Shown here piece after piece: positions 174 through 55,550 of a DNA stretch of 64,000 nt. The first letter of the stretch is position 1, and each line of letters opens with the position of its first letter. Source of the DNA: Sphyrna mokarran (Eukaryota); NCBI GenBank assembly GCA_024679065.1, contig JAGIQG010000003.1, positions 57,846,001-57,910,000 of the forward strand, given 5' to 3'. The notes beneath the pieces were generated by a model that worked only from the letters and a program-made list of their open reading frames with translations, made no database searches and was not told where the DNA came from. The translations under genes were made by a program, and so were the position numbers.

Positions 174-288
174 ATCCTGTTTCAAAAGCAAGGAATTGCT
201 GCCGGAGGTATTCCAAAAAAATCCCTGACTTGAAGAACATCCAGCAATACAAAGAACAGGATCCTGTCTGTACGAAGGATGCTGTATT
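174..288 (+). CDS. CC chemokine, internal (second-type) coding exon
   Basis: Polypyrimidine tract plus ttccAG acceptor before 174 and GTAAGT donor at 289; 115 nt with phase 1/2 boundaries typical of CC-chemokine exon 2; translates (x)PVSKARNCCRRYSKKIPDLKNIQQYKEQDPVCTKDAV(L) with adjacent CC and third Cys. Signal-peptide exon presumably lies upstream of the window. Confidence 0.92.
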
Positions 289-400
289 GTAAGTATTGAG
301 AACAGTTGCCCTCTCTGGAGTCTGACATTATGTAGCATTATTAAGAGGTTATGTCTTACATAGTTAATATTCTAATTAAACTTATTCTGTTACTTTTTAG

Positions 401-494
401 GCTCATGGTTAAGAACAAATGGATCTGCTTAAATCCAAACAATAAGAAAGTGAAGCAACTTGTGAAAGCATTTTCCCAGAAGATATCAGGCTGA
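401..494 (+). CDS. CC chemokine, terminal coding exon
   Basis: tactttttAG acceptor at 399-400; in frame with the previous exon: (L)LMVKNKWICLNPNNKKVKQLVKAFSQKISG* (TGA 492-494) with the fourth Cys in a C-x-N-P motif followed by a basic C-terminal helix-like segment. Confidence 0.92.
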
Positions 495-1789: not shown

Positions 1790-2686
1790 ATCACTTAAGA
1801 GCTGGTGTTGGGCCAGCTAATTGGGCTAAAGGTAGACAAGTTTCTTGGCCCTGACAAAATGCATTCCAAGGTACCAAAAGAGGTGGTGAGGGAAATAGCA
1901 AATGCACTAATGGTAATTTACCAAAATTTGCTGGACTCTGGGGTGATTCCCGCAGATTGGAAAACAGCAAATGTGATGCCATTGCTTAAAAAAGGGGGTA
2001 GACAAAAAAACTGGTAACTATAGGTCTGTTAGCTTAACTTCTGTCGTGGGAGAAATGCTTAAATCTATCATCGCTATTGATAGAAATAGCGAGACATCTG
2101 GATATAACTTGTCCCATTGAGAAGACGCAGCATGGACTCATGAAGGGTAGTTCATGTTTGACTAATTTAGTGGAATTCTTTGAAAGCATTACATGCACGG
2201 TGGACAATGGGAAACTGACATATATCTGGATTTCCAGAAGGCATTTGACAAGGTGCCGCACCAAAGGCTGCTGCATAAGACAAAGATACACAGTGTTACA
2301 GGTAATGTATTAGCAAGAATAAAGGATTGGTTAACTAACAGAATACAAAGAGTGGCGGTAAATGGGTATTTCTTTGATTGGCAATCAGTAACTAGTGATG
2401 TGCCTCAGGGATCAGCATTGGGACTGCAATCATTTACAATTAACAGAAATGAATTGGAGTTGGGAACCAAGTATAGTGACAGAGCAGACTTGATGGCCTG
2501 AATGGCCAAATTCTGCTCCTACGTCTTATGGTCAAAATTTGCAGATGACAGTAAGGTAGTGTAGAGAGGACATTGCAAAGGGATATAGATAGTCTAAGTG
2601 AGGGGATAAGCGTCTGTCAGATGGAGTAAAATGTTGGTAAATGTGAGGTCATCCATTTTGATAGGAATAACAGCAAAATGGACTAA
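1790..2686 (+). mobile_element. CR1/HER1-type LINE, degenerate RT fragment
   Basis: Frameshifted peptides GPDKMHSKVPKE, PADWKTANV, QHGLMKGSSCLTNLVEFFE, YLDFQKAFDKVPH, VPQGSALG, KFADD. Confidence 0.9.
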
Positions 2687-4794
2687 GCAGACAAAGGAGG
2701 CGCCATCGTCATACTGAACAGAACGGACTACTGTGAAGAAGTGTACCGACAACTAAACAATGTGAAACACTACAGACAATTACCAGCAGATCCAACCAAA
2801 GAACACACTCGTCAACTCAACACTCTGATCAAAACCTTTGATCCGGACTTTCAGAACAGCCTCCAGGCTCTCATTCCACGTACTCCCTGCATTGGAGATC
2901 TCTACTGCCTCCCAAAGATACACAAGGCAAACATACCCGGCCGTCCCATCATATCAGGCAATGGGACCCTGTGTGAGAACCTCTCTGGCTATATCGAGGG
3001 CATCCTGAAACCCATTGTACAAAGAACCCTCAGCTTTTGTCGTGACACTACGGACTTCCTACAGAAACTCAGCACACATGGAGCAGTTGAACCAGGGACA
3101 CTCCTTGTCACAATGGATGTCTCGGCGCTCTACACCAACATCCCCCATAACGATGGTATTGCTGCAACTGCCTCAGTACTCAATGCCAACAACTGCCAGT
3201 TTCCAGATGCAATTTTACAACTCATCCGCTTCATCTTGGACCACAATGTCTTCACCTTCAACAATCAGCTTTTCATCCAGACACATGGAACAGCCATGGG
3301 GACCAAATTCCCACCTCAGTATGCCAACATCTTCATACACAGCTTCGAACAAGACTTCTTTACCACACGAGATCTTCAACCAAGGTTATATACTAGATAC
3401 ATTGATGACATCTTTTTCCTTTGGACTCATGGTGAACAATCATTGAAACAACTGTATGATGATATCAACAAGTTCCATCCCACCATCAGACTCACCATGA
3501 ACTATTCTCCAGAATCAGTTGCATTCTTGGACACACGCATCTCCATCAAGGACGGTCACCTCAGTACCTCACTGTACCGCAAACCAACAGACAACCTCAC
3601 AATGTTCCACTTTTCCAGCTTCCACCCTAGACACGTTAAAGAAGCCATTCCCTATGGACAAGCCCTCCGTATACACAGAATTTGCTCAGGTGAGGAGGAT
3701 CGTGACAGACACCTCCAGACGCTGAAGGATGCCCTCGTGAGAACAGGATATGGCGCTCGACTCATCGATCAACAGTTCCGACGTGCCACAGTGATAAACC
3801 GCACTGACCTCCTCAGAAGACGAACATGGGACACGGTGGACAGAGTACCCTTTGTTGTCCAGTACTTCCCTGGAGCGGAGAAGCTATGACATCTTCTCCA
3901 GAGTCTTCAACATATCATTGATGACGATGAACATCTCGCTAGGGCCATCCCCACCTCCCCACTTCTTGCTTTCAGACAACCGCACAACCTCAAACAGATC
4001 ATTGTTCGCAGCAAACTACCCAACCTTCAGGAGAACAGTGACCACAATACCACACAACCCTGCCACAGCAAACTCTGCAAGACATGCCGGATCATAGACA
4101 TGGACGACATCATCAAACGTGAGGATACCATTCACCAGGTACACGATACATACACTTGCAACTCGGCCAACGTTGTCTACCTAATACGTTGCAAGAAAGG
4201 ATGTCCCGAAGCATGGTACATTGGGGAGACCATGCAGACACTACGACATCGGATGAATGAGCATCGCTCAACAATCACCAGGCAAAACAGTTCCCTTCCT
4301 GTGGGCGAACACTTCAGCAGTCATGGGCATTCGGCCTCCGACCTGCGGGTAAATGTTCTTCAAGGAGGCCTTCGTGACACACGACAGCGCAGAGTTGCTG
4401 AGCAGAGACTGATAGCCAAGTTCCGCACACATGAGGACGGTCTTAACAGGGATCTTGGCGTCATGTCACACTATCTGTAACCCCCGTAACTTGCCTGGAT
4501 TAGCAAAAAACCTCACTTACTGTGCTGTCTGGAGAAAATACACAATTCTCTAACCAATGCTCAGGATTCCCTTCACACACATTGTTTGCCACTTTAACAC
4601 TTGAATAGCAGGTTAGATGTAAGGATTCGCATTCTAATCAGCAATCTGTGACTGTCTGTGTTGATATGTGTGCTACTGCAGACCAGAACATTGCATTTGC
4701 CTGATGAAGACAGAAAGTCGAAAGCTCGCAAATTTGCTATCAAATAAATCGGTTGGATTTACAATTGGTGTTGCTAGATTCTTACTGAGTTCTT
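2687..4794 (+). mobile_element. Penelope-like retroelement (Neptune-type), 5'-truncated, RT + GIY-YIG endonuclease + 3' non-coding region
   Basis: One reading frame 2687-4480 with ADKGG, LPKIHK...GRPII, DVSALYTNIP, GTAMG, RYIDD, FLD, a Cys-rich linker PCHSKLCKTC, and VVYLIRC...WYIGET...R..EH...HF...H GIY-YIG/CCHH features; broken only by TGA at 3887-3889. Confidence 0.95.
4695..4733 (+). ncRNA. Minimal type I hammerhead ribozyme in the PLE 3' region
   Basis: ATTTGC-CTGATGA-A-GAC(AGAAA)GTC-GAAA-GC-TC-GCAAAT: 6-bp stem I, both core boxes, stem II hairpin, palindromic AGCT in place of stem III, UC cleavage site. Confidence 0.85.
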
Positions 4795-4810
4795 TCTGCA
4801 TAACAGCAGA

Positions 4811-5135
4811 GAACAAAGAACAAAGAACAAAACAGCATGGGAAACAGGCCCTTCGGCCCAACGAGCCCGCGCCGCCACCTCGATGTTCCCACTTCTACAT
4901 GCGATCCCTGTCCATGTATATAGATCTATGGATTAAAAACCAAATTTGAGACAATTTAGGGAGAATTTGTTTTGCCAATTAGCCTAAGAGCACATCTTTG
5001 GGATGTGGGAGGAAACCAGAGCCCCCGGAGAAAACCCATGCAAGCACGGGGAGAATGCGCAAACTCCCACAGACACAGGCCCAAATCCATGTATCTGCAC
5101 AGCACAGCTATAGTCACTGCGCTGTCGTGTTGCCC
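4811..5135 (-). mobile_element. tRNA-derived V-SINE (HE1-like) with CR1-type tail
   Basis: Minus strand: GGGCAACACGACAGCGCAGTG head, V-domain-like TTCTCCCCGTG...GGTTTCCTCCCACATCCCAAAGATGTG, GGGCCGAAGGGCCTGTTTC and (TTCTTTG)n tail. Confidence 0.85.
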
Positions 5136-5707
5136 ATCAGATGGTCCAGGTCAAGCATACACTAACGATGTAATCTCCCCATGCCTGGAGAGATGATTAT
5201 CTTTCAATTATTTTTCAGTTCTGTTATTTCTCTTCAACCCTGGCAGCACATTTGATACATTGAAACTATTGTCTGATTAAAATATCTACAATAAGGTCAT
5301 ATGCATGTCAACCACTACACCACAATGTCAGAAAAGAAGAGCATTTCCTCCAATTCGTCCTGTTTACTTACGTTTTGTAGCAAGTACAAGCTGCAAACTG
5401 ACTGTTACTACATCATCATTAAACGCAATCACATGAGTAATAATAACATTGTTTTTCATAAAATAAATAACTGAAACTTTTTCCTAAGCAACCAATTTAA
5501 ACTGCCCGTCCTGCGTATCATGTTGGTTCAGTTCCTGGGTGGATCATGTGCTGCTGCATGTAAGGTAGATAGACCGAAGAGATTTCAAGGCTAATCTATG
5601 ATTAAGGGTGAGTTACTTGTACTCTAAATTCCATGGGAAATTTTATTTCTGCTGTAACTTGGTGAGAGAATTAGGGAACATCTCAAATAAAGGATGTGCT
5701 GAGCCAT

Positions 5708-5903
5708 TCCACATCCCAAAGATGTGCTCTTAGGCTAATTGGTAAAACAAATTCTCCCTAAATTGTCTCAAATTTGGTTTTTAATCCATAGGTCTATAAA
5801 CATAGACAGGGATCACAGGTAGAGGTGGGAACATTGGGGTGGTGGTGCGGGCTCTTCGGGCCGCAGGGCCTGTTTCCCGTGTTGTTTTGTTCTTTGTTCT
5901 TTG
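5708..5903 (+). mobile_element. 5'-truncated copy of the same SINE subfamily, inverted relative to 4811-5010
   Basis: Reverse complement closely matches 4811-5010 (e.g. CTCCCTAAATTGTCTCAAATTTGGTTTTTAATCCATAG). Confidence 0.85.
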
Positions 5904-17899: not shown

Positions 17900-17990
17900 A
17901 CACATTCACCTGACGAAGGAGCAGCATTTTGAAAGCTTGTGATTCCAAATAAACCTAGATTTTAACCTGGTGTTGTGAGACTTCTTGCTG
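17900..17990 (+). mobile_element. Short PLE-related terminal repeat with HHR motif
   Basis: TCAC-CTGACGA-A-GGAGCAGCATTTT-GAAA-GC-TT-GTGA followed by AAATAAACC...TTTAACCTGGTGTTGTGAGACTTCTT, as in the arrays at 21328-22220. Confidence 0.75.
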
Positions 17991-21327: not shown

Positions 21328-22220
21328 AGTAAGAAGTCTCACAATACCAGGTTAAAGTCCAACAGGTTTATTTGGTAGCAAAAGCCACTAGCTTTCAGAA
21401 TGTTGTCCCTTCATCACGCGAGTGGGAGTTCTATTCACAAACAGGGCATATAAAGACACAAACTCAATTTACAAAATAATGGTCTGCTTTCTTGCATCTT
21501 TGTAGAAACTTGACGTCTGTGCCAAATGCGCGGTCTTCTTGGAGATCATCTCCTCTTGGAGAGCCGGCAGTTTGTGGTATCGGTGGTAGTCATGATGTGG
21601 AAACGCCAGTGTTGGACTGGGGTAAGCATAGTAAAAAGCCTCACAACTCCAGATTAAAGTCCAACAGGTTTATTTGGTAACAAAAGCCACTAGTTTTCAG
21701 AGTGCTGTCCCTTTGTCAGGTGAGTGGGAATAACGATATGGTGAATAACGATCTCCAAGAAGATCATGCATATCGGCACAGACATCAAGTTTCTACAAGG
21801 ATGCAAGAAAGCAGACCATTATTTTGTAAATTGAGTTTGTGTCTTTATATGCCCTGTTTGTGAATAGAACTCCCACTAACCTGACAAAAGGACAGCGCTC
21901 TGAAAGCTAGTGGCTTTTGCTACCAAATAAATCTGTTGGGCTTTAGCCTGGTGTTGTGAGACTATATGGTGAATAACGATCTCCAAGAAGATCATGCATA
22001 TCGGCACAGACATCAAGTTTCTACAAGGATGCAAGAAAGCAGACCATTATTTTGTAAATTGAGTTTGTGTCTTTATATGCCCTGTTTGTGAATAGAACTC
22101 CCACTAACCTGACAAAAGGACAGCGCTCTGAAAGCTAGTGGCTTTTGCTACCAAATAAATCTGTTGGGCTTTAGCCTGGTGTTGTGAGACTTCAGTTCTA
22201 CGCCGGCATCTCCACATCAT
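21328..22220. repeat. Compound inverted + tandem array of a short PLE-related, HHR-bearing unit
   Basis: Two minus-oriented units (starts 21328 and 21630, ~302 nt period) followed by two plus-oriented 228-nt copies (21736-21963, 21964-22191); flanked by AGAGAATAGAG (21319-21329) / AGAGAATAAAG (22224-22234). Confidence 0.85.
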
Positions 22221-32266: not shown

Positions 32267-33284
32267 ACTCAGTAAGAATTTAGCAACACCAATTATTAAT
32301 CCAACCGATTTATTTGATAGTAAAAAAGCGAGCTTTCAACACTCCCGTGTCTTCATCAGGCAAGTGCAGTGTTCTGGTCTGCAATAGCACACATCAGCAC
32401 AGACAGTCAGAGATTGCTAATTAGAATGCGAATCCTTACATCTAACCTGCTATTCAAGTGTTAAAGTGGCTAACAATGTGTGTGAAGGGAATCCTGAGCA
32501 TTGGTTAGAGAATTGTGTATTTTCTCCAGACAGCACAGTAAGTGAGGTTTTTGCTAACCCAGGCAAGTTACGGGGGTTACAGATAGTGTGACATGAAGCC
32601 AAGATCCCTGTTAAGACCGTCCTCATGTGTGCGGAACTTGGCTATCAGTCTCTGCTCAGCAATTCTGAGCTGTTGTGTGTCACGAAGGCCGCCTTGAAGA
32701 ACATTTACCGCAGGTCGGAGGCCGAATGCCCATGACTGCTGAAGTGTTCGCCCACAGGAAGGGAACTGTTTTGCCTGTGATTGTTGAGCGATGCTCATTC
32801 ATCCGCTGTCGTAGTGTCTACGTGGTCTCCCCAATGTACCATGCTTCGGGACATCCTTTCTTGCAACGTATTAGGTAGACAACGTTGGCCGAGTTGCAAG
32901 AGTATGTACCGTGCACCTGGTGAATGGTATCCTCACGTTTGATGATGTCGTCCATGTCTATGATCCGGCATGTCTTGCAGAGGGTGCTGTGGCAGGGTTG
33001 TGTGGTATTGTGGTCACTGTTCTCCTGAAGGTTGGGTAGTTTGCTGCGAACAATGATCTGTTTGAGGTTGTGCGGTTGTCTGAAAGCAAGAAGTGGGGGG
33101 GGTGGGGATGGCCCTAGCGAGATGTTCATCGTCATCAATGATATGTTGAAGACTCCGGAGAAGATGTCGTAGCTTCTCCGCTCCGGGGAAGTACTGGACA
33201 ACAAAGGGTACTCTGTCCACCGTGTCCCGTGTTCGTCTTCTGAGGAGTTCAGTGCGGTTTATCGTTGTGGCACGTTGGAACAGA
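32267..33284 (-). mobile_element. Penelope-like element copy 2 (5'-truncated) with 14-bp TSD
   Basis: Highly similar to ~3770-4790; GIY-YIG region with small indels; CTACTTTTCATACT at 32256-32269 and 33285-33298. Confidence 0.93.
32322..32366 (-). ncRNA. Hammerhead ribozyme motif in PLE copy 2
   Basis: Minus strand TTGC-CTGATGA-A-GACAC(GGGA)GTGTT-GAAA-GC-TC-GC; core intact, longer stem II, stem I weakened. Confidence 0.7.
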
Positions 33285-34253: not shown

Positions 34254-35249
34254 GACATCTTTTACCAATCAGAGGCTAGGGCTGGATCCAGATATAAAAT
34301 GGATCCAAACCCGGAATCCCCGTTCCAGCACGCCCATACGCCTTTTGCCGGCTCAGATGGATCTCTCGTTGAAGAGTGGTGTGAAGATTCTCCCAAGTCT
34401 ATCCTCCCCCCAATTCTCCACCACCTGCCCACCAACCAGAGATCCATCTGAGCTCGTCCCCTCTTGCAGCAGACACCAGCAGAAGGCCAGGAAGGTGCTG
34501 CAGGCTGTCCAGCAAGTCCAGTAAGAAGTCTCACAACACCCAGTTAAAGTCCAGTTAGACTAGTGTTGTAAGACTCCTTACTGTGTTCACCCCAGTCCAA
34601 CGCCGGCATTTCCACATCGATGGTTGGTCAGAAGAATGGTGGAGGAAAACTGAGGTAGGTTGAGGGTATGCTCTGCCTCCTGGGGAAGGGGTCTGATCAT
34701 GGGAGGGGTGTCTGCCTCCTGGAAGGGTCTGACAGTGAGGGTGGGGGGGATAGTTTGCCAGGGGCCTGCCTCCCGGCAGTTTTGATTGCAGGGGTGTGTG
34801 CTCTGCCGAACGGGCTTGCTTCCCTGGGGGGGGTCTGATCAGAGAGGGGGGATATGCCGGGGGGGCGTCTATCTCCCAGGAGGTTCGGATCATGGGGCGA
34901 GGGTCTGCTGGCGTGGTTAGTGGGGGGTCTGCGAATGAGGAGGATGGCCTTTGGAGGTTCACCTGCATAATAGGAATCCGCTTCGGATTTTTATTCTACA
35001 GGTTAGTAACAGTGCAGATCCGAAGACGGTAAAGTGGGATTTGGCAGTAGAATTGGGCGCGCAGTTCATTAAGTCAATTTAAATGCACGCTAATGATTGA
35101 GGCGCGGACCGGATCTGCGCCCAAATCGGGTGTCGGTAAAGGCACGATTTGCTCGGTTTCGGGTGCAGATCGCATTACAGGCCCAGTGCCCGAATTTACC
35201 ACAATTTCGCGCCTGAAAACCAGAGCGAATTTTTGGTAAAATCGGGACC
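34254..35249. mobile_element. Non-autonomous Harbinger-like DNA transposon containing a PLE-repeat hairpin insertion
   Basis: Ends TTTTACCAA / TTGGTAAAA; G-rich internal repeats like 28727-29634; 34520-34620 is a fold-back of the short PLE-related repeat. Confidence 0.6.
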
Positions 35250-35485
35250 CTGCGGCCATGAAAGGGGGCACAGCTCAGTCTCTCCCTTCAATCCTGCACT
35301 ATGAGGAAAAACTGTGATAACAGTTCTGCAATTCCAAAGGGGCCAGGATCAGAAGTCCAAGTCAGAAATGCAAAACACCATGTTAGTGAAAAGAAATTTG
35401 GAACAGGCTGACAATCTGATGGTAATGGCCATTCCTTGGAAGATTCTGCTGGTTGATTATGTTGAATTTAATCAATGCTATCAGC

Positions 35486-35688
35486 AGTCTCACAACACAA
35501 GATTAAAGTCCAACACGTTTAGTTGGAATCACAAGTTTTCACAGTGCAGCTCTTTTATCACTCACCTGATGAAGGAGCAACACTTCAAAAGCTCATGATT
35601 CCAACTAAACCTGTTATACTTTAACCTGCTGTTGTGAGACTATTTACTGTGTCCACCCTAGTCCAATGCTGACATCGCCACATCATGA
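35486..35688. repeat. Palindromic (head-to-head) copy of the short HHR-bearing PLE-related repeat
   Basis: AGTCTCACAACA...TTGGAATCAC mirrored by GATTCCAACTAAACCTGTT...TGTTGTGAGACT; central CACCTGATGAAGGAGC; ends CAATGCTGACATCGCCACATCATG. Confidence 0.8.
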
Positions 35689-47534: not shown

Positions 47535-48343
47535 GATGTAGAGATGCTGGCGTTGGACTGGGGTAGTAAGAACTCAGTAAGAATCTAGCAACACCAATTT
47601 TAAATCCAACCGATTTATTTGATAGTAAATTTGCGAGCTTTTGACCTTTTGCCTTTGTCAGGCAAATGCAGTGTTCTGGTCTGCAATAGCACACATATCA
47701 ACACAGACAGTCACAGATTGCTGATTAGAATGCGAATTCTTACATCTAACCTGCTATTCAAGTGTTAAAGTGGCTAACAATGTGTGTGAAGGGAATCCTG
47801 AGCATTGGTTAGAGAATTGTGTATTTTCTCCAGACAGCACAGTAAGTGAGGTTTTTTGCTACCCCAGGCAAGTCACGGGGGTTACAGATAGTGTGACATG
47901 AAGCCAAGATCCCTGTTATGACCGTCCTCATGTGTGCGGAACTTGGCTATCAGTCTCTGCTCAACGACTCTGCGCTGTCGTGTGTCATGAAGGCCCCCTT
48001 GAAGAACATTTACCCGAAGGTCGGAGGCCGAGTGCCCATGACTGCTGAAGTGTTCGCCCACAGGAAGGGGACTGTTTTGCCTGGTGATTGTTGAGTGATG
48101 CTCATTCATCCGCTGTCGTAGTGTCTGCATGGTCTCCCCAATGTATCATGCTTCGGGACATCCTTTCTTGCAACGTTTTAGGTAGACAACGTTGGCCGAG
48201 TTGCAAGAGTATGTACCGTGTACCTGGTGAATGGTATCCTCACATTTGATAATGTCGTCCATGTCTATGATCCGGCATGTCTTGCAGAGGTTGCTGTGGC
48301 AGGGTTGTGTGGTATTGTGGTCACTGTTCTCCAAATGTTCTCC
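47535..48343 (-). mobile_element. Penelope-like element copy 3 (5'-truncated) with 13-bp TSD and extended 3' tail
   Basis: Highly similar to ~4030-4794; ATTTGCTAGTTAT at 47522-47534 and 48344-48356; HHR at 47629-47667 with decayed core. Confidence 0.93.
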
Positions 48344-53700: not shown

Positions 53701-55211
53701 AATATTTTGCTTTTATTTTTGTTATCTAGAATGTCCTGGCCATTATTTGTCCTTCAATCAACACCACAAAAATGAACTTATCTGTTCATTTTCACATTTT
53801 TTTGTTTGTGCGAACTTGTTGTTTACACTTGTCTGTTTAGTTTCTGCTATTATTTCTGGACTTACATTTCTAAAGTATTGCACTGTTCATAAGTGTTTGG
53901 GATGTGCAGTGGTTGTGAAAGATACTGTGTAAATGCAGTTCTTTCTTTTACAGAAGCAGTGACTGGTAGAGGAAGACGTGGAACATGGTATTGATTAACA
54001 GGAGGAATGGCAGCTTGTGTCCTATCACAGCTGCTGCACTTGGAATCTGGACCTTGCGATATTGGTTTTAAAAGGAATTAATCACTCAGTAAGCAAACAG
54101 TCAGCTTTCACACACAACATGATATGATATTAAAATCTGTACTGAAACTGTGCAGAAAGTGCAAAAGTTTGCAAGTACATTTCATCAATTGGCACTTCTA
54201 ATGTAACGCTTGAGTGTTGCCTCCAAGCTGAGAGTTAGAGAGCCATGGGCTATATTATTCATCTTCAAATATGGAGAAATTACCCTTCAGATGTACTCGG
54301 TTGTGACAATGCAATAAATATCTGCCAGATAAAACTCTCGTGTAACCCACCAACCTTAAGATAAATGGCTGGACAGCCCAAAAGCATTTCTGCACTGATG
54401 CCGCACAAGCAGACTTATTCTCTATGAGATTTAGTCATCACAGTACTAAATGTGTAGTCTGTAGCTCCTACATCTGTTGAAAAAGCTTCAGCCACTTTAA
54501 TTGCAATTATGGGAGCTGTCAAGGAGCTTAATTGGTGCTCGATATTTCTTCTTCTGGTTTTGTCTTTTGGCTGCTTTCAGCAGTAAGACAATTGAATGTA
54601 GTTATCACTGGGCTACCATACCAGCTGTTAATTTTTTTGAACTGAGTAGCAGAACTGCTGTGGTCAACCTCAAACACAAAAATTAGCCCCAGATCCATGA
54701 GGCTGTGGCAATGCATTAAATACTTGTCAGATAAGATCCATCTGTAGACGTTCTTGTTCTGGCAAGTATAATTGGTGGAATGTAACACAGTAGAGAATGT
54801 TTGGGTTGACGTCTTAACAGCAGCACACACATATGGAAAGAACAGAAGAATGCCTTCTGGACCACTATTCCTGTGATATCTTATTAGCCCTGAAAGAGGT
54901 GCAAGCAATGAACCACTCATACCAATGCAGTGATCAATTTGCAGTTTGTTTGATCTACTCAGAACTACCACTGCATAATTCCTTTCACAGAGTTGGTTGT
55001 TGAAAACACTTCCAGCTGCAGTATTCATAACTACAATTTTCATGTTTTCAAACATGTCTCTAAACTCATCACTGGTAAATTCCCTTCCATTATCAGTGAG
55101 AAATTTAACCAATGATCCAAGTCTGGTTCATGTCCATTTCTCCAAGACTTTATTCACAATCAGTTTTTTGCCCTTTAATTGTTTTACTGTTGAAAGACTA
55201 AATCAAGTTAC

Positions 55212-55550
55212 CATGATGTGGAGATGCCGATGTTGGACTGTGGTGGGCACATTTTGAAGTTTCACAACACAAGGTCAAAGTCCATCAGATTTATTTGGAA
55301 TCATGAGCTTTTGGAGCACTGCTCCTTCATTAGATGAGTGTCAATATGCATGATCTCCTTGGAGATCTTCTCCACTTTAAGCCGGCTTGCAGTGTCAATG
55401 GTAGCCATGATGTGGAAATGCTGCTGTTGGGCTGGAGTGGGCACAGTAAGAAGTCTCATAATACCAGGTTAAAGTCCAAGAAGTTTATTTGGAATCACAA
55501 ACTTTTGAAGCACTGTGCCTTCATCAGGTGGATGCACCTGACGAAGGCAC
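55212..55550 (-). repeat. Tandem (~194-nt period) copies of the short HHR-bearing PLE-related repeat ending in a mini-palindrome
   Basis: CATGATGTGGA.ATG at 55212 and 55406; HHR-like cores on the minus strand near 55300-55337 and 55495-55531; terminal GTGCCTTCATCAGGTG-GATG-CACCTGACGAAGGCAC. Confidence 0.8.

What the first reader, a model, noticed from the sequence alone, without database searches (positions are those of the whole stretch)
4695..4733. Intact-looking minimal hammerhead ribozyme at the PLE 3' end, with stem II varying across copies
Seen: stem I ATTTGC/GCAAAT, CUGAUGA, stem II, GAAA and UC site. Stem II differs in sequence and length among the three copies but keeps pairing: GAC/GTC; GACAC-GGGA-GTGTT with a GNRA loop; GGC/GTC. 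Stem III is reduced to the palindrome AGCU. Known: PLEs carry minimal HHRs proposed to cleave efficiently as dimers via a palindromic stem III. Inference: predicted cleavage after C4727 would define the PLE RNA end and could also cut read-through transcripts from the same-strand chemokine gene ~4.2 kb upstream.
Basis: partly seen in the sequence, partly recalled or inferred. Interest (0 to 1): 0.7.

Follow-up and report, generated by a model that had tools for sequence, protein, structure and literature searches.

The report
Penelope retrotransposon's minimal hammerhead, likely idle
This is a real, intact copy of the tiny self-cutting RNA motif already known from Penelope-like jumping genes, one of thousands in this genome; every sampled sister copy runs well past the predicted cut, so the cut likely does not set the end of the copied RNA, and this lone copy in a broken element is likely idle.

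Summary
The motif at 4695-4733 is as described and matches the published minimal-hammerhead consensus of metazoan Penelope-like elements (Cervera and De la Pena 2014). It sits 215 nt behind the RT/GIY-YIG frame of a 5'-truncated, stop-broken, Neptune-type element; the genome holds at least 3,934 exact core matches (control 0). The three window copies show no compensation: copy 2 has lost stem I, copy 3 both catalytic G's. Covariation is real across subfamilies. The functional reading fails: 0 of 30 upstream-anchored copies end at the cut (most end 59-69 or 100-103 nt beyond it), copies starting at the cut are at background (about 0.4%), published dimer activity is low rather than efficient, and this copy has no close same-strand partner. 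Cutting chemokine read-through is unsupported. One lead: 20 of 85 independent copies begin at the motif's 5' edge (4683-4701, 4-5 times background), as does one full-length tandem copy, suggesting the RNA starts there and is copied uncut. The scan has noted this kind of motif and this pile-up before in this and other shark-like genomes. Known kind; modest interest.

The parts
4695..4700 (+). Hammerhead stem I, 5' arm
   Evidence: pairs with 4728-4733 in the minimum-energy fold of the 39-mer
4701..4707 (+). Core box CUGANGA (C3-A9); U7 is likely a CpG-decay change from the family's usual C
   Evidence: N7 is C 67, G 14, T 9, A 1 of 91 copies
4708..4708 (+). Extra A between A9 and G10.1 (position 9b), a published trait of PLE minimal hammerheads
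   Evidence: A in 90 of 91 copies; PMC4209133
4709..4719 (+). Stem II, 3 bp (GAC/GUC) with a 5-nt loop; the commonest stem II variant in my sample
   Evidence: 15 of 163 parsed copies (sample partly chosen by likeness to this copy)
4720..4727 (+). GAAA core box, AGCU palindrome (4723-4726, stem III only possible between two copies) and predicted cleavage nucleotide C17 (4727)
   Evidence: A13, A14, A15.1, U16.1 invariant in 91 of 91, position 17 C/T/A and never G
4728..4733 (+). Hammerhead stem I, 3' arm
   Evidence: family variants at 4730/4731 are mostly A-to-G, which keeps G-U pairing
4734..4797 (+). Rest of the pseudo-LTR beyond the cut, with AATAAA at 4743-4748; this copy ends at the first of two family end points and lacks the ~35-nt tail
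4683..4701 (+). Zone where 5' ends of sister copies pile up (likely RNA start, or a fold-back hot spot)
   Evidence: 29 of 101 anchors; 20 of 85 after collapsing pairs and duplicates
2687..3889 (+). 5'-truncated PLE reverse-transcriptase frame ending in a premature stop (3887-3889); inserted in an older LINE RT fragment
   Evidence: Pfam RVT_1 E 5.9e-08; stop mapped; LINE RT at 2184-2501 E 7.1e-06
3890..4480 (+). Same frame after the stop: CX4CXXC linker and GIY-YIG endonuclease
   Evidence: Pfam GIY-YIG E 2e-4, just under the curated cut-off; linker motif
32324..32365 (-). Copy 2 of the motif: intact core, 5-bp stem II, stem I cut to 2 bp
   Evidence: does not fold as a hammerhead
47629..47667 (-). 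Copy 3 of the motif: G8 and G12 both changed to A, predicted dead; carries the tail
17906..17942 (+). Hammerhead of an older sister family (stem I TCAC/GTGA); nearest intact-core same-strand motif downstream
174..494 (+). CC-chemokine exons 2 (174-288) and 3 (401-494); bystander
   Evidence: Pfam IL8 E 5.2e-05; exon reading

Best explanation
The stretch is an intact minimal type I hammerhead in the downstream pseudo-LTR of a 5'-truncated, stop-broken Penelope-like element, and this lone copy is likely idle. In the active element (about 3.0 kb per unit; shown by the tandem copy L061) one hammerhead lies 100 nt before the AUG and a second 215 nt behind the stop codon (shown). The RNA likely starts at the 5' edge of the first hammerhead (inferred). 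The reverse transcriptase likely starts inside the RNA at two sites about 65 and 100 nt past the cut, as shown in vitro for the anole element PAc (end points shown, mechanism inferred). Starting at the downstream site would give long copies like this one; starting at the upstream site would run off the RNA start and give 100-140-nt stubs. Both need an RNA uncut at the hammerhead. Cleavage would need a second hammerhead (AGCU:AGCU stem III) and probably the element's protein, and is likely a slow or side step, not the maker of the template's end.
For: Fit to the published consensus. Core-independent tally of 91 copies: non-CpG core positions nearly invariant; losses at G8 (15), G12 (14) and G1.1 (13) sit at CpG sites; 47 of 91 keep core and both stems. 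Stem II pairs 2 and 3 are paired in 44 of 44 cells among 22 recurrent variants (shuffle mean 39.9, p 0.002) and 148 of 160 among 80 distinct variants (mean 121), with A-U/G-C and C-G/G-C swaps. 3' ends: 0 of 30 at the cut; 14 at +59 to +69, 9 at +100 to +103, 4 scored at +45/46 where a subfamily diverges, 3 between. 5' ends: 20 of 85 at 4683-4701, 1.5% per nt against 0.27-0.34% on either side; the full-length tandem L061 also starts there. PMC11167929: internal initiation at two sites, protein-assisted cleavage, core mutants do not affect insertion in vitro, no reads ending at the cut.
Against: The 5' pile-up is 19 nt broad and many of its copies are fold-backs, so a template-switch hot spot explains it too; boundaries came from one reference, which shifts divergent subfamilies by some bases. 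A ligated circle would also give copies that run past the cut. The covariation shuffles ignore relatedness, and near-invariance within a young family shows little about selection. Estimated starts are low just before the cut (about 90 at 4726) and higher just after (about 360 at 4729, against a baseline near 190), a weak step that minor cleavage could cause.
Confidence: 0.7

Rival explanations
1. Cut-and-ligate circle: the two hammerheads of a tandem transcript fold as a dimer, both cut, the unit-length RNA is ligated into a circle that restores the motif, and reverse transcription from the internal site runs back through the junction. The cut then defines the RNA unit although no genomic copy ends at it.
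For: Proposed in PMC4209133. A tandem unit with two intact same-strand motifs 3,018 nt apart exists (L061). The double-hammerhead dimer is about as stable as two monomers (-12.3 vs -12.6 kcal/mol). The palindrome is kept (G15.2 90 of 91, C16.2 89 of 91).
Against: A circle has no end at 4683-4701, yet 20 of 85 copies and the full-length L061 begin there. Core mutants of PAc still insert in vitro. Naiad PLEs proliferate without canonical hammerheads (PMC8557442).
Confidence: 0.17
2. The motif is kept as a folded signal (protein binding, pausing, translation or packaging) or is a passenger, and never cuts at a meaningful rate.
For: Most stem II variants are not predicted to fold as hammerheads even in a short context (median probability 0.04 over 28 types). 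No excess of starts at 4728. Both options are left open in PMC4209133 and PMC8557442.
Against: Position 17 is never G in 91 copies and the whole catalytic core is kept while N7 and the stems vary, the signature of selection for chemistry; PAc's motif does cut with protein.
Confidence: 0.1
3. The copy cuts read-through transcripts of the upstream CC-chemokine gene and so acts on the host gene.
For: Same strand, 4.2 kb behind the stop codon, intact core. Hammerheads in rodent Clec2 3' UTRs are a precedent (figure legend of PMC6155905).
Against: ATTAAA at 1078 and AATAAA at 2318 come first. Fold probability is 0-27% with upstream sequence attached. No intact same-strand partner within 13 kb downstream; the motif 3.5 kb before the window has lost stem II. 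With about one core-intact motif per 15 kb in the sampled loci (52 in 770 kb, a sample centred on family copies), nearness to some gene is expected.
Confidence: 0.03

Closest known systems
Minimal hammerheads (min-HHR) in the pLTRs of metazoan Penelope-like elements (Cervera and De la Pena 2014, PMC4209133)
   Same: Type I layout, CUGANGAH with the extra base before G10.1, G10.1-C11.1 pair, GAAAN-palindrome-NUH, place in the pLTR behind the ORF, thousands of variable solo copies. The turtle row of their figure S3 has the same G-C, hence AGCU, at stem III.
   Different: Stem II is 3 bp here against 6 or more in their consensus (but 3 bp in their C. briggsae row); stem I is 6 bp against the usual 3-5. 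No shark appears in the supplement file searched (terms 'shark', 'Callorhinchus': 0; file 1 could not be searched).
PAc, the Poseidon PLE of Anolis carolinensis (Frangieh et al. 2024, PMC11167929)
   Same: Hammerhead in the pLTR near the start codon; two genomic end points downstream of the cut that bound a 30-40-nt tail; copies made from uncut RNA.
   Different: In PAc the ORF starts inside the motif and the tail lies 111-118 nt into the ORF; here the AUG lies 100 nt after the cut and the tail ends at the AUG. This element has the CX4CXXC linker that PMC8557442 assigns to Neptune and Nematis, not Poseidon.
Non-LTR retrozymes and newt satellite hammerheads (tandem type I HHR; bioRxiv 10.64898/2026.07.22.740005)
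   Same: Type I motif that needs a dimer; proposed to derive from PLE pLTRs.
   Different: Those are short tandem, non-coding arrays; this copy is single and attached to 1.8 kb of RT/endonuclease frame.

Membership tests
PLE minimal hammerhead (min-HHR) | Core boxes CUGANGA and GAAA with NUH site | tested here: met
PLE minimal hammerhead (min-HHR) | Extra nucleotide between A9 and 10.1, and G10.1-C11.1 pair | tested here: met
   A4708, G4709-C4719; 9b is A in 90 of 91 copies
PLE minimal hammerhead (min-HHR) | Stem III reduced to a palindrome | tested here: met
   AGCU 4723-4726; self-duplex -3.9 kcal/mol
PLE minimal hammerhead (min-HHR) | Located in the pseudo-LTR of an RT + GIY-YIG element, present at both ends of full copies | tested here: met
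   (L061)
PLE minimal hammerhead (min-HHR) | Covariation in stems across family variants | tested here: met
   met across subfamilies, not among the three window copies; shuffles ignore relatedness
PLE minimal hammerhead (min-HHR) | Self-cleavage as dimer or with protein | not testable with these tools
   contigs cannot show ends; no genomic footprint at the cut
Canonical hammerhead (Rfam families) | Match to an Rfam hammerhead model; a stem III that closes in one copy | tested here: not met
   no hammerhead among 8 matches at E<=5; two bases between A15.1 and U16.1
Neptune/Nematis clade of EN+ PLEs | [quoted passage not shown] | tested here: met
   definition from PMC8557442 passages
Neptune/Nematis clade of EN+ PLEs | Placement in an RT phylogeny | not tested
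   no tree built
Non-LTR retrozyme | At least two consecutive short tandem units, each with a motif, no ORF | tested here: not met
   single motif joined to an ORF; nearest intact same-strand motif 13 kb away

The most novel reading that the evidence does not exclude
The thousands of genomic copies are a fossil map of the element's RNA: the transcript starts at the first bases of the hammerhead, the enzyme primes at two sites just before the AUG and runs off that start, and about a quarter of all insertions are copies of this uncut 100-140-nt leader. The hammerhead would then be the folded 5' end of the mRNA, a protein-triggered decapping switch rather than an end-maker, which is directly testable by cap mapping and a protein-assisted cleavage assay.
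Probability: 0.35. Interest if true: 0.55.

Novelty: new member of a known kind. Interest (0 to 1): 0.3.

Why it matters
The role of hammerheads in endonuclease-bearing PLEs is called unclear in PMC8557442. This copy alone adds nothing, but the family (52,495 exact matches to a 17-mer just past the cut) lets end points be counted. The counts rule out the simplest idea, that the cut makes the template's 3' end; they cap the share of copies starting at the cut near 1%; and they point to a candidate RNA start at the motif's 5' edge. That gives exact coordinates for cap mapping and a small construct for a cleavage test.

Tried and rejected
Rfam scan: no hammerhead hit. RNA evidence: 21 runs listed, 4 laid; all were contigs and cannot show ends, strand or level, so nothing is concluded from them. 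Footprint at the cut: among 86 copies truncated in 4724-4733 (94 found, 8 dropped as internal deletions) 16% were assigned to 4728 (bootstrap 3-27%, uniform 10%); among 25 non-fold-back copies 36% (6-61%), likelihood ratio 7.6 on 9 degrees of freedom, not significant. Genome-wide boundary patterns gave 145, 59, 121 and 52 matches; 7 of 30 inspected loci of the first were intact motifs with small insertions; after correction about 140-210 copies start at 4728 against a baseline near 190 per position. The other three patterns were not inspected for such contamination. Conformational switch (upstream sequence hides the motif in the downstream pLTR): seen for this copy (0.94 to 0.01) but not more than with shuffled upstream sequence across 28 stem II types (Wilcoxon p 0.71); rejected. 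Folding energy of the 39-mer is not exceptional (z -1.14). A spliced-intron end just before the motif, as in D. virilis, was considered; no shared upstream exon sequence was evident by eye among the boundaries, and it was not tested further. No RT tree, protein homology search, structure prediction or covariance model was run.

Full report
Observation. The window reads stem I 5' arm 4695-4700, CTGATGA 4701-4707, an extra A 4708, a 3-bp stem II with 5-nt loop 4709-4719, GAAA 4720-4723, GC, T4726, C4727 and the 3' arm 4728-4733. Stems I and II are the minimum-energy fold of the 39-mer, though the energy is ordinary (z -1.14). A strict descriptor finds this motif and one at 17910 in the window and none in 300 simulated 64-kb sequences. 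Rfam has no matching model. The two sister copies are damaged: copy 2 keeps 2 bp of stem I, and copy 3 has lost G8 and G12, the residues named as general acid and base in PMC6155905 (passages seen). Their stem II differences are one-sided or CpG changes.

Setting. The motif lies 215 nt behind the stop of a frame with RT (Pfam E 5.9e-08) and GIY-YIG (E 2e-4) domains, 5'-truncated at about 2687, broken by a stop at 3887 and inserted in an older LINE fragment. The linker CX4CXXC points to the Neptune/Nematis group by the definition in PMC8557442 (passages seen); no tree was built. The family is large: 3,934 exact matches to a core pattern, 22,222 and 52,495 to two anchors beyond the cut, 9,429 to one before the core, with reversed controls of 0 to 4. 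One fetched locus, L061, is a full tandem unit: two intact motifs 3,018 nt apart, AUG 100 nt after the first cut, first stop at codon 654. L097 shows the same start.

Conservation. In 91 copies picked by flanks only, C3, U4, G5, A6, A9, A13, A14, A15.1 and U16.1 vary in at most 2 copies each, N7 is split among subfamilies, position 17 is C, T or A and never G, and the losses at G8, G12 and G1.1 fall on CpG sites; 63 keep the core and 47 core plus stems (the sample includes copies chosen by likeness to this one). Among 154 parsed copies (317 anchored, 163 parsed, 9 dropped for register shift), the 22 recurrent stem II variants pair at positions 2 and 3 in 44 of 44 cells (shuffle mean 39.9, p 0.002), with two-sided swaps; stem I pair 2 swaps G-C for A-U in older families. 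The shuffles ignore relatedness. The structure was thus likely kept in the master elements; single copies simply decay.

Does the cut make the end? Of 30 copies anchored upstream of the core, none ends at the cut; all run at least 45 nt beyond it, clustering at +59 to +69 and +100 to +103. These two points bound a tail like the one traced to internal initiation in PAc (PMC11167929, parts 1-2 of 4 read: abstract, main text, start of methods). That paper also found cleavage only with protein, no effect of core mutants on insertion, and no reads ending at the cut. If cut RNAs were copied, insertions should start at 4728. They do not in excess: about 0.3-0.4% of copies, against a baseline of 0.37% per position; 4729 is estimated at 0.7% and 4726 at under 0.2%, a weak step that fold-back palindromes confound. 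The footprint reported by an earlier AI note for another genome is therefore not reproduced here. Instead 29 of 101 downstream-anchored copies, 20 of 85 after collapsing fold-back pairs and dropping three duplicated loci, begin at 4683-4701, 4-5 times the rate on either side (binomial p 1e-7), and so does the upstream repeat of L061.

Mechanism. Shown: anatomy, two 3' end points, 5' pile-up, tandem layout. Inferred: an RNA that starts at the first motif, internal priming at either pLTR, templates uncut. Cleavage needs two motifs (the dimer is about as stable as two monomers) and probably protein; the source paper found no monomer and low dimer activity (PMC4209133, parts 1-2 of 4 and part 2 of supplement file 2 read; file 1 not available). 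Across 28 stem II types the hammerhead fold is usually not the favoured one, which fits a need for help. The circle model survives as a rival because ligation restores the motif. In sampled loci 8 of 52 core-intact motifs have a same-strand partner within 4 kb and 15 an opposite-strand one; this copy has neither within 13 kb downstream on its strand.

Chemokine. A three-exon CC chemokine ends at 494. Poly(A)-signal hexamers at 1078 and 2318 precede the motif, and the fold is disfavoured in long RNA. Nothing ties the motif to the gene.

Novelty. The class is published. Three full-text searches (Penelope-like + hammerhead; Penelope + hammerhead + shark; Penelope + pLTR + promoter + transcription start) listed no paper devoted to shark PLE hammerheads or to their 5' boundaries; I saw only listings for most hits, and subscription papers are not covered. 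The bioRxiv retrozyme preprint (parts 1-2 of 5 read) includes one cartilaginous fish. The scan's own notes hold 446 findings with these words in at least 28 genomes and 27 in this genome. Verdict: real, new member of a known kind, likely idle at this locus; interest 0.3.

Noticed in passing
window 174-494; exon 1 about 1,356 bases before the window (L063): Three-exon CC-chemokine gene with a signal-peptide-like first exon and three ATTTA motifs at 1181-1427 near a candidate poly(A) signal at 1078.
   Followed up: partly
window 4814-5903: A 1.1-kb element with 195-nt inverted ends (92% complementary) sits directly behind the PLE copy; looks like a fold-back insertion of another repeat.
   Followed up: no
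window 2667-2675 and 4800-4808: The same 9-mer flanks both ends of the PLE copy and may be part of a target-site duplication.
   Followed up: no
window 4743-4748: A family-wide AATAAA lies 15 nt after the cut, yet all sampled copies run 20-80 nt past where it would end a transcript, so templates read through it.
   Followed up: partly
window 21328-22193, 34520-34584, 35479-35687, 55211-55530: Many short, often head-to-head stubs of an older sister PLE family with decayed hammerheads; 21733-22188 is an exact 228-nt tandem duplication.
   Followed up: partly
loci L181-L269: 61 of 86 copies truncated near the cut are fold-back insertions, often turning at short palindromes.
   Followed up: partly
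L112, L108/L116, L109/L115, L103/L104: Identical motif copies with identical flanks point to local segmental duplications near the start of contig C1.
   Followed up: no
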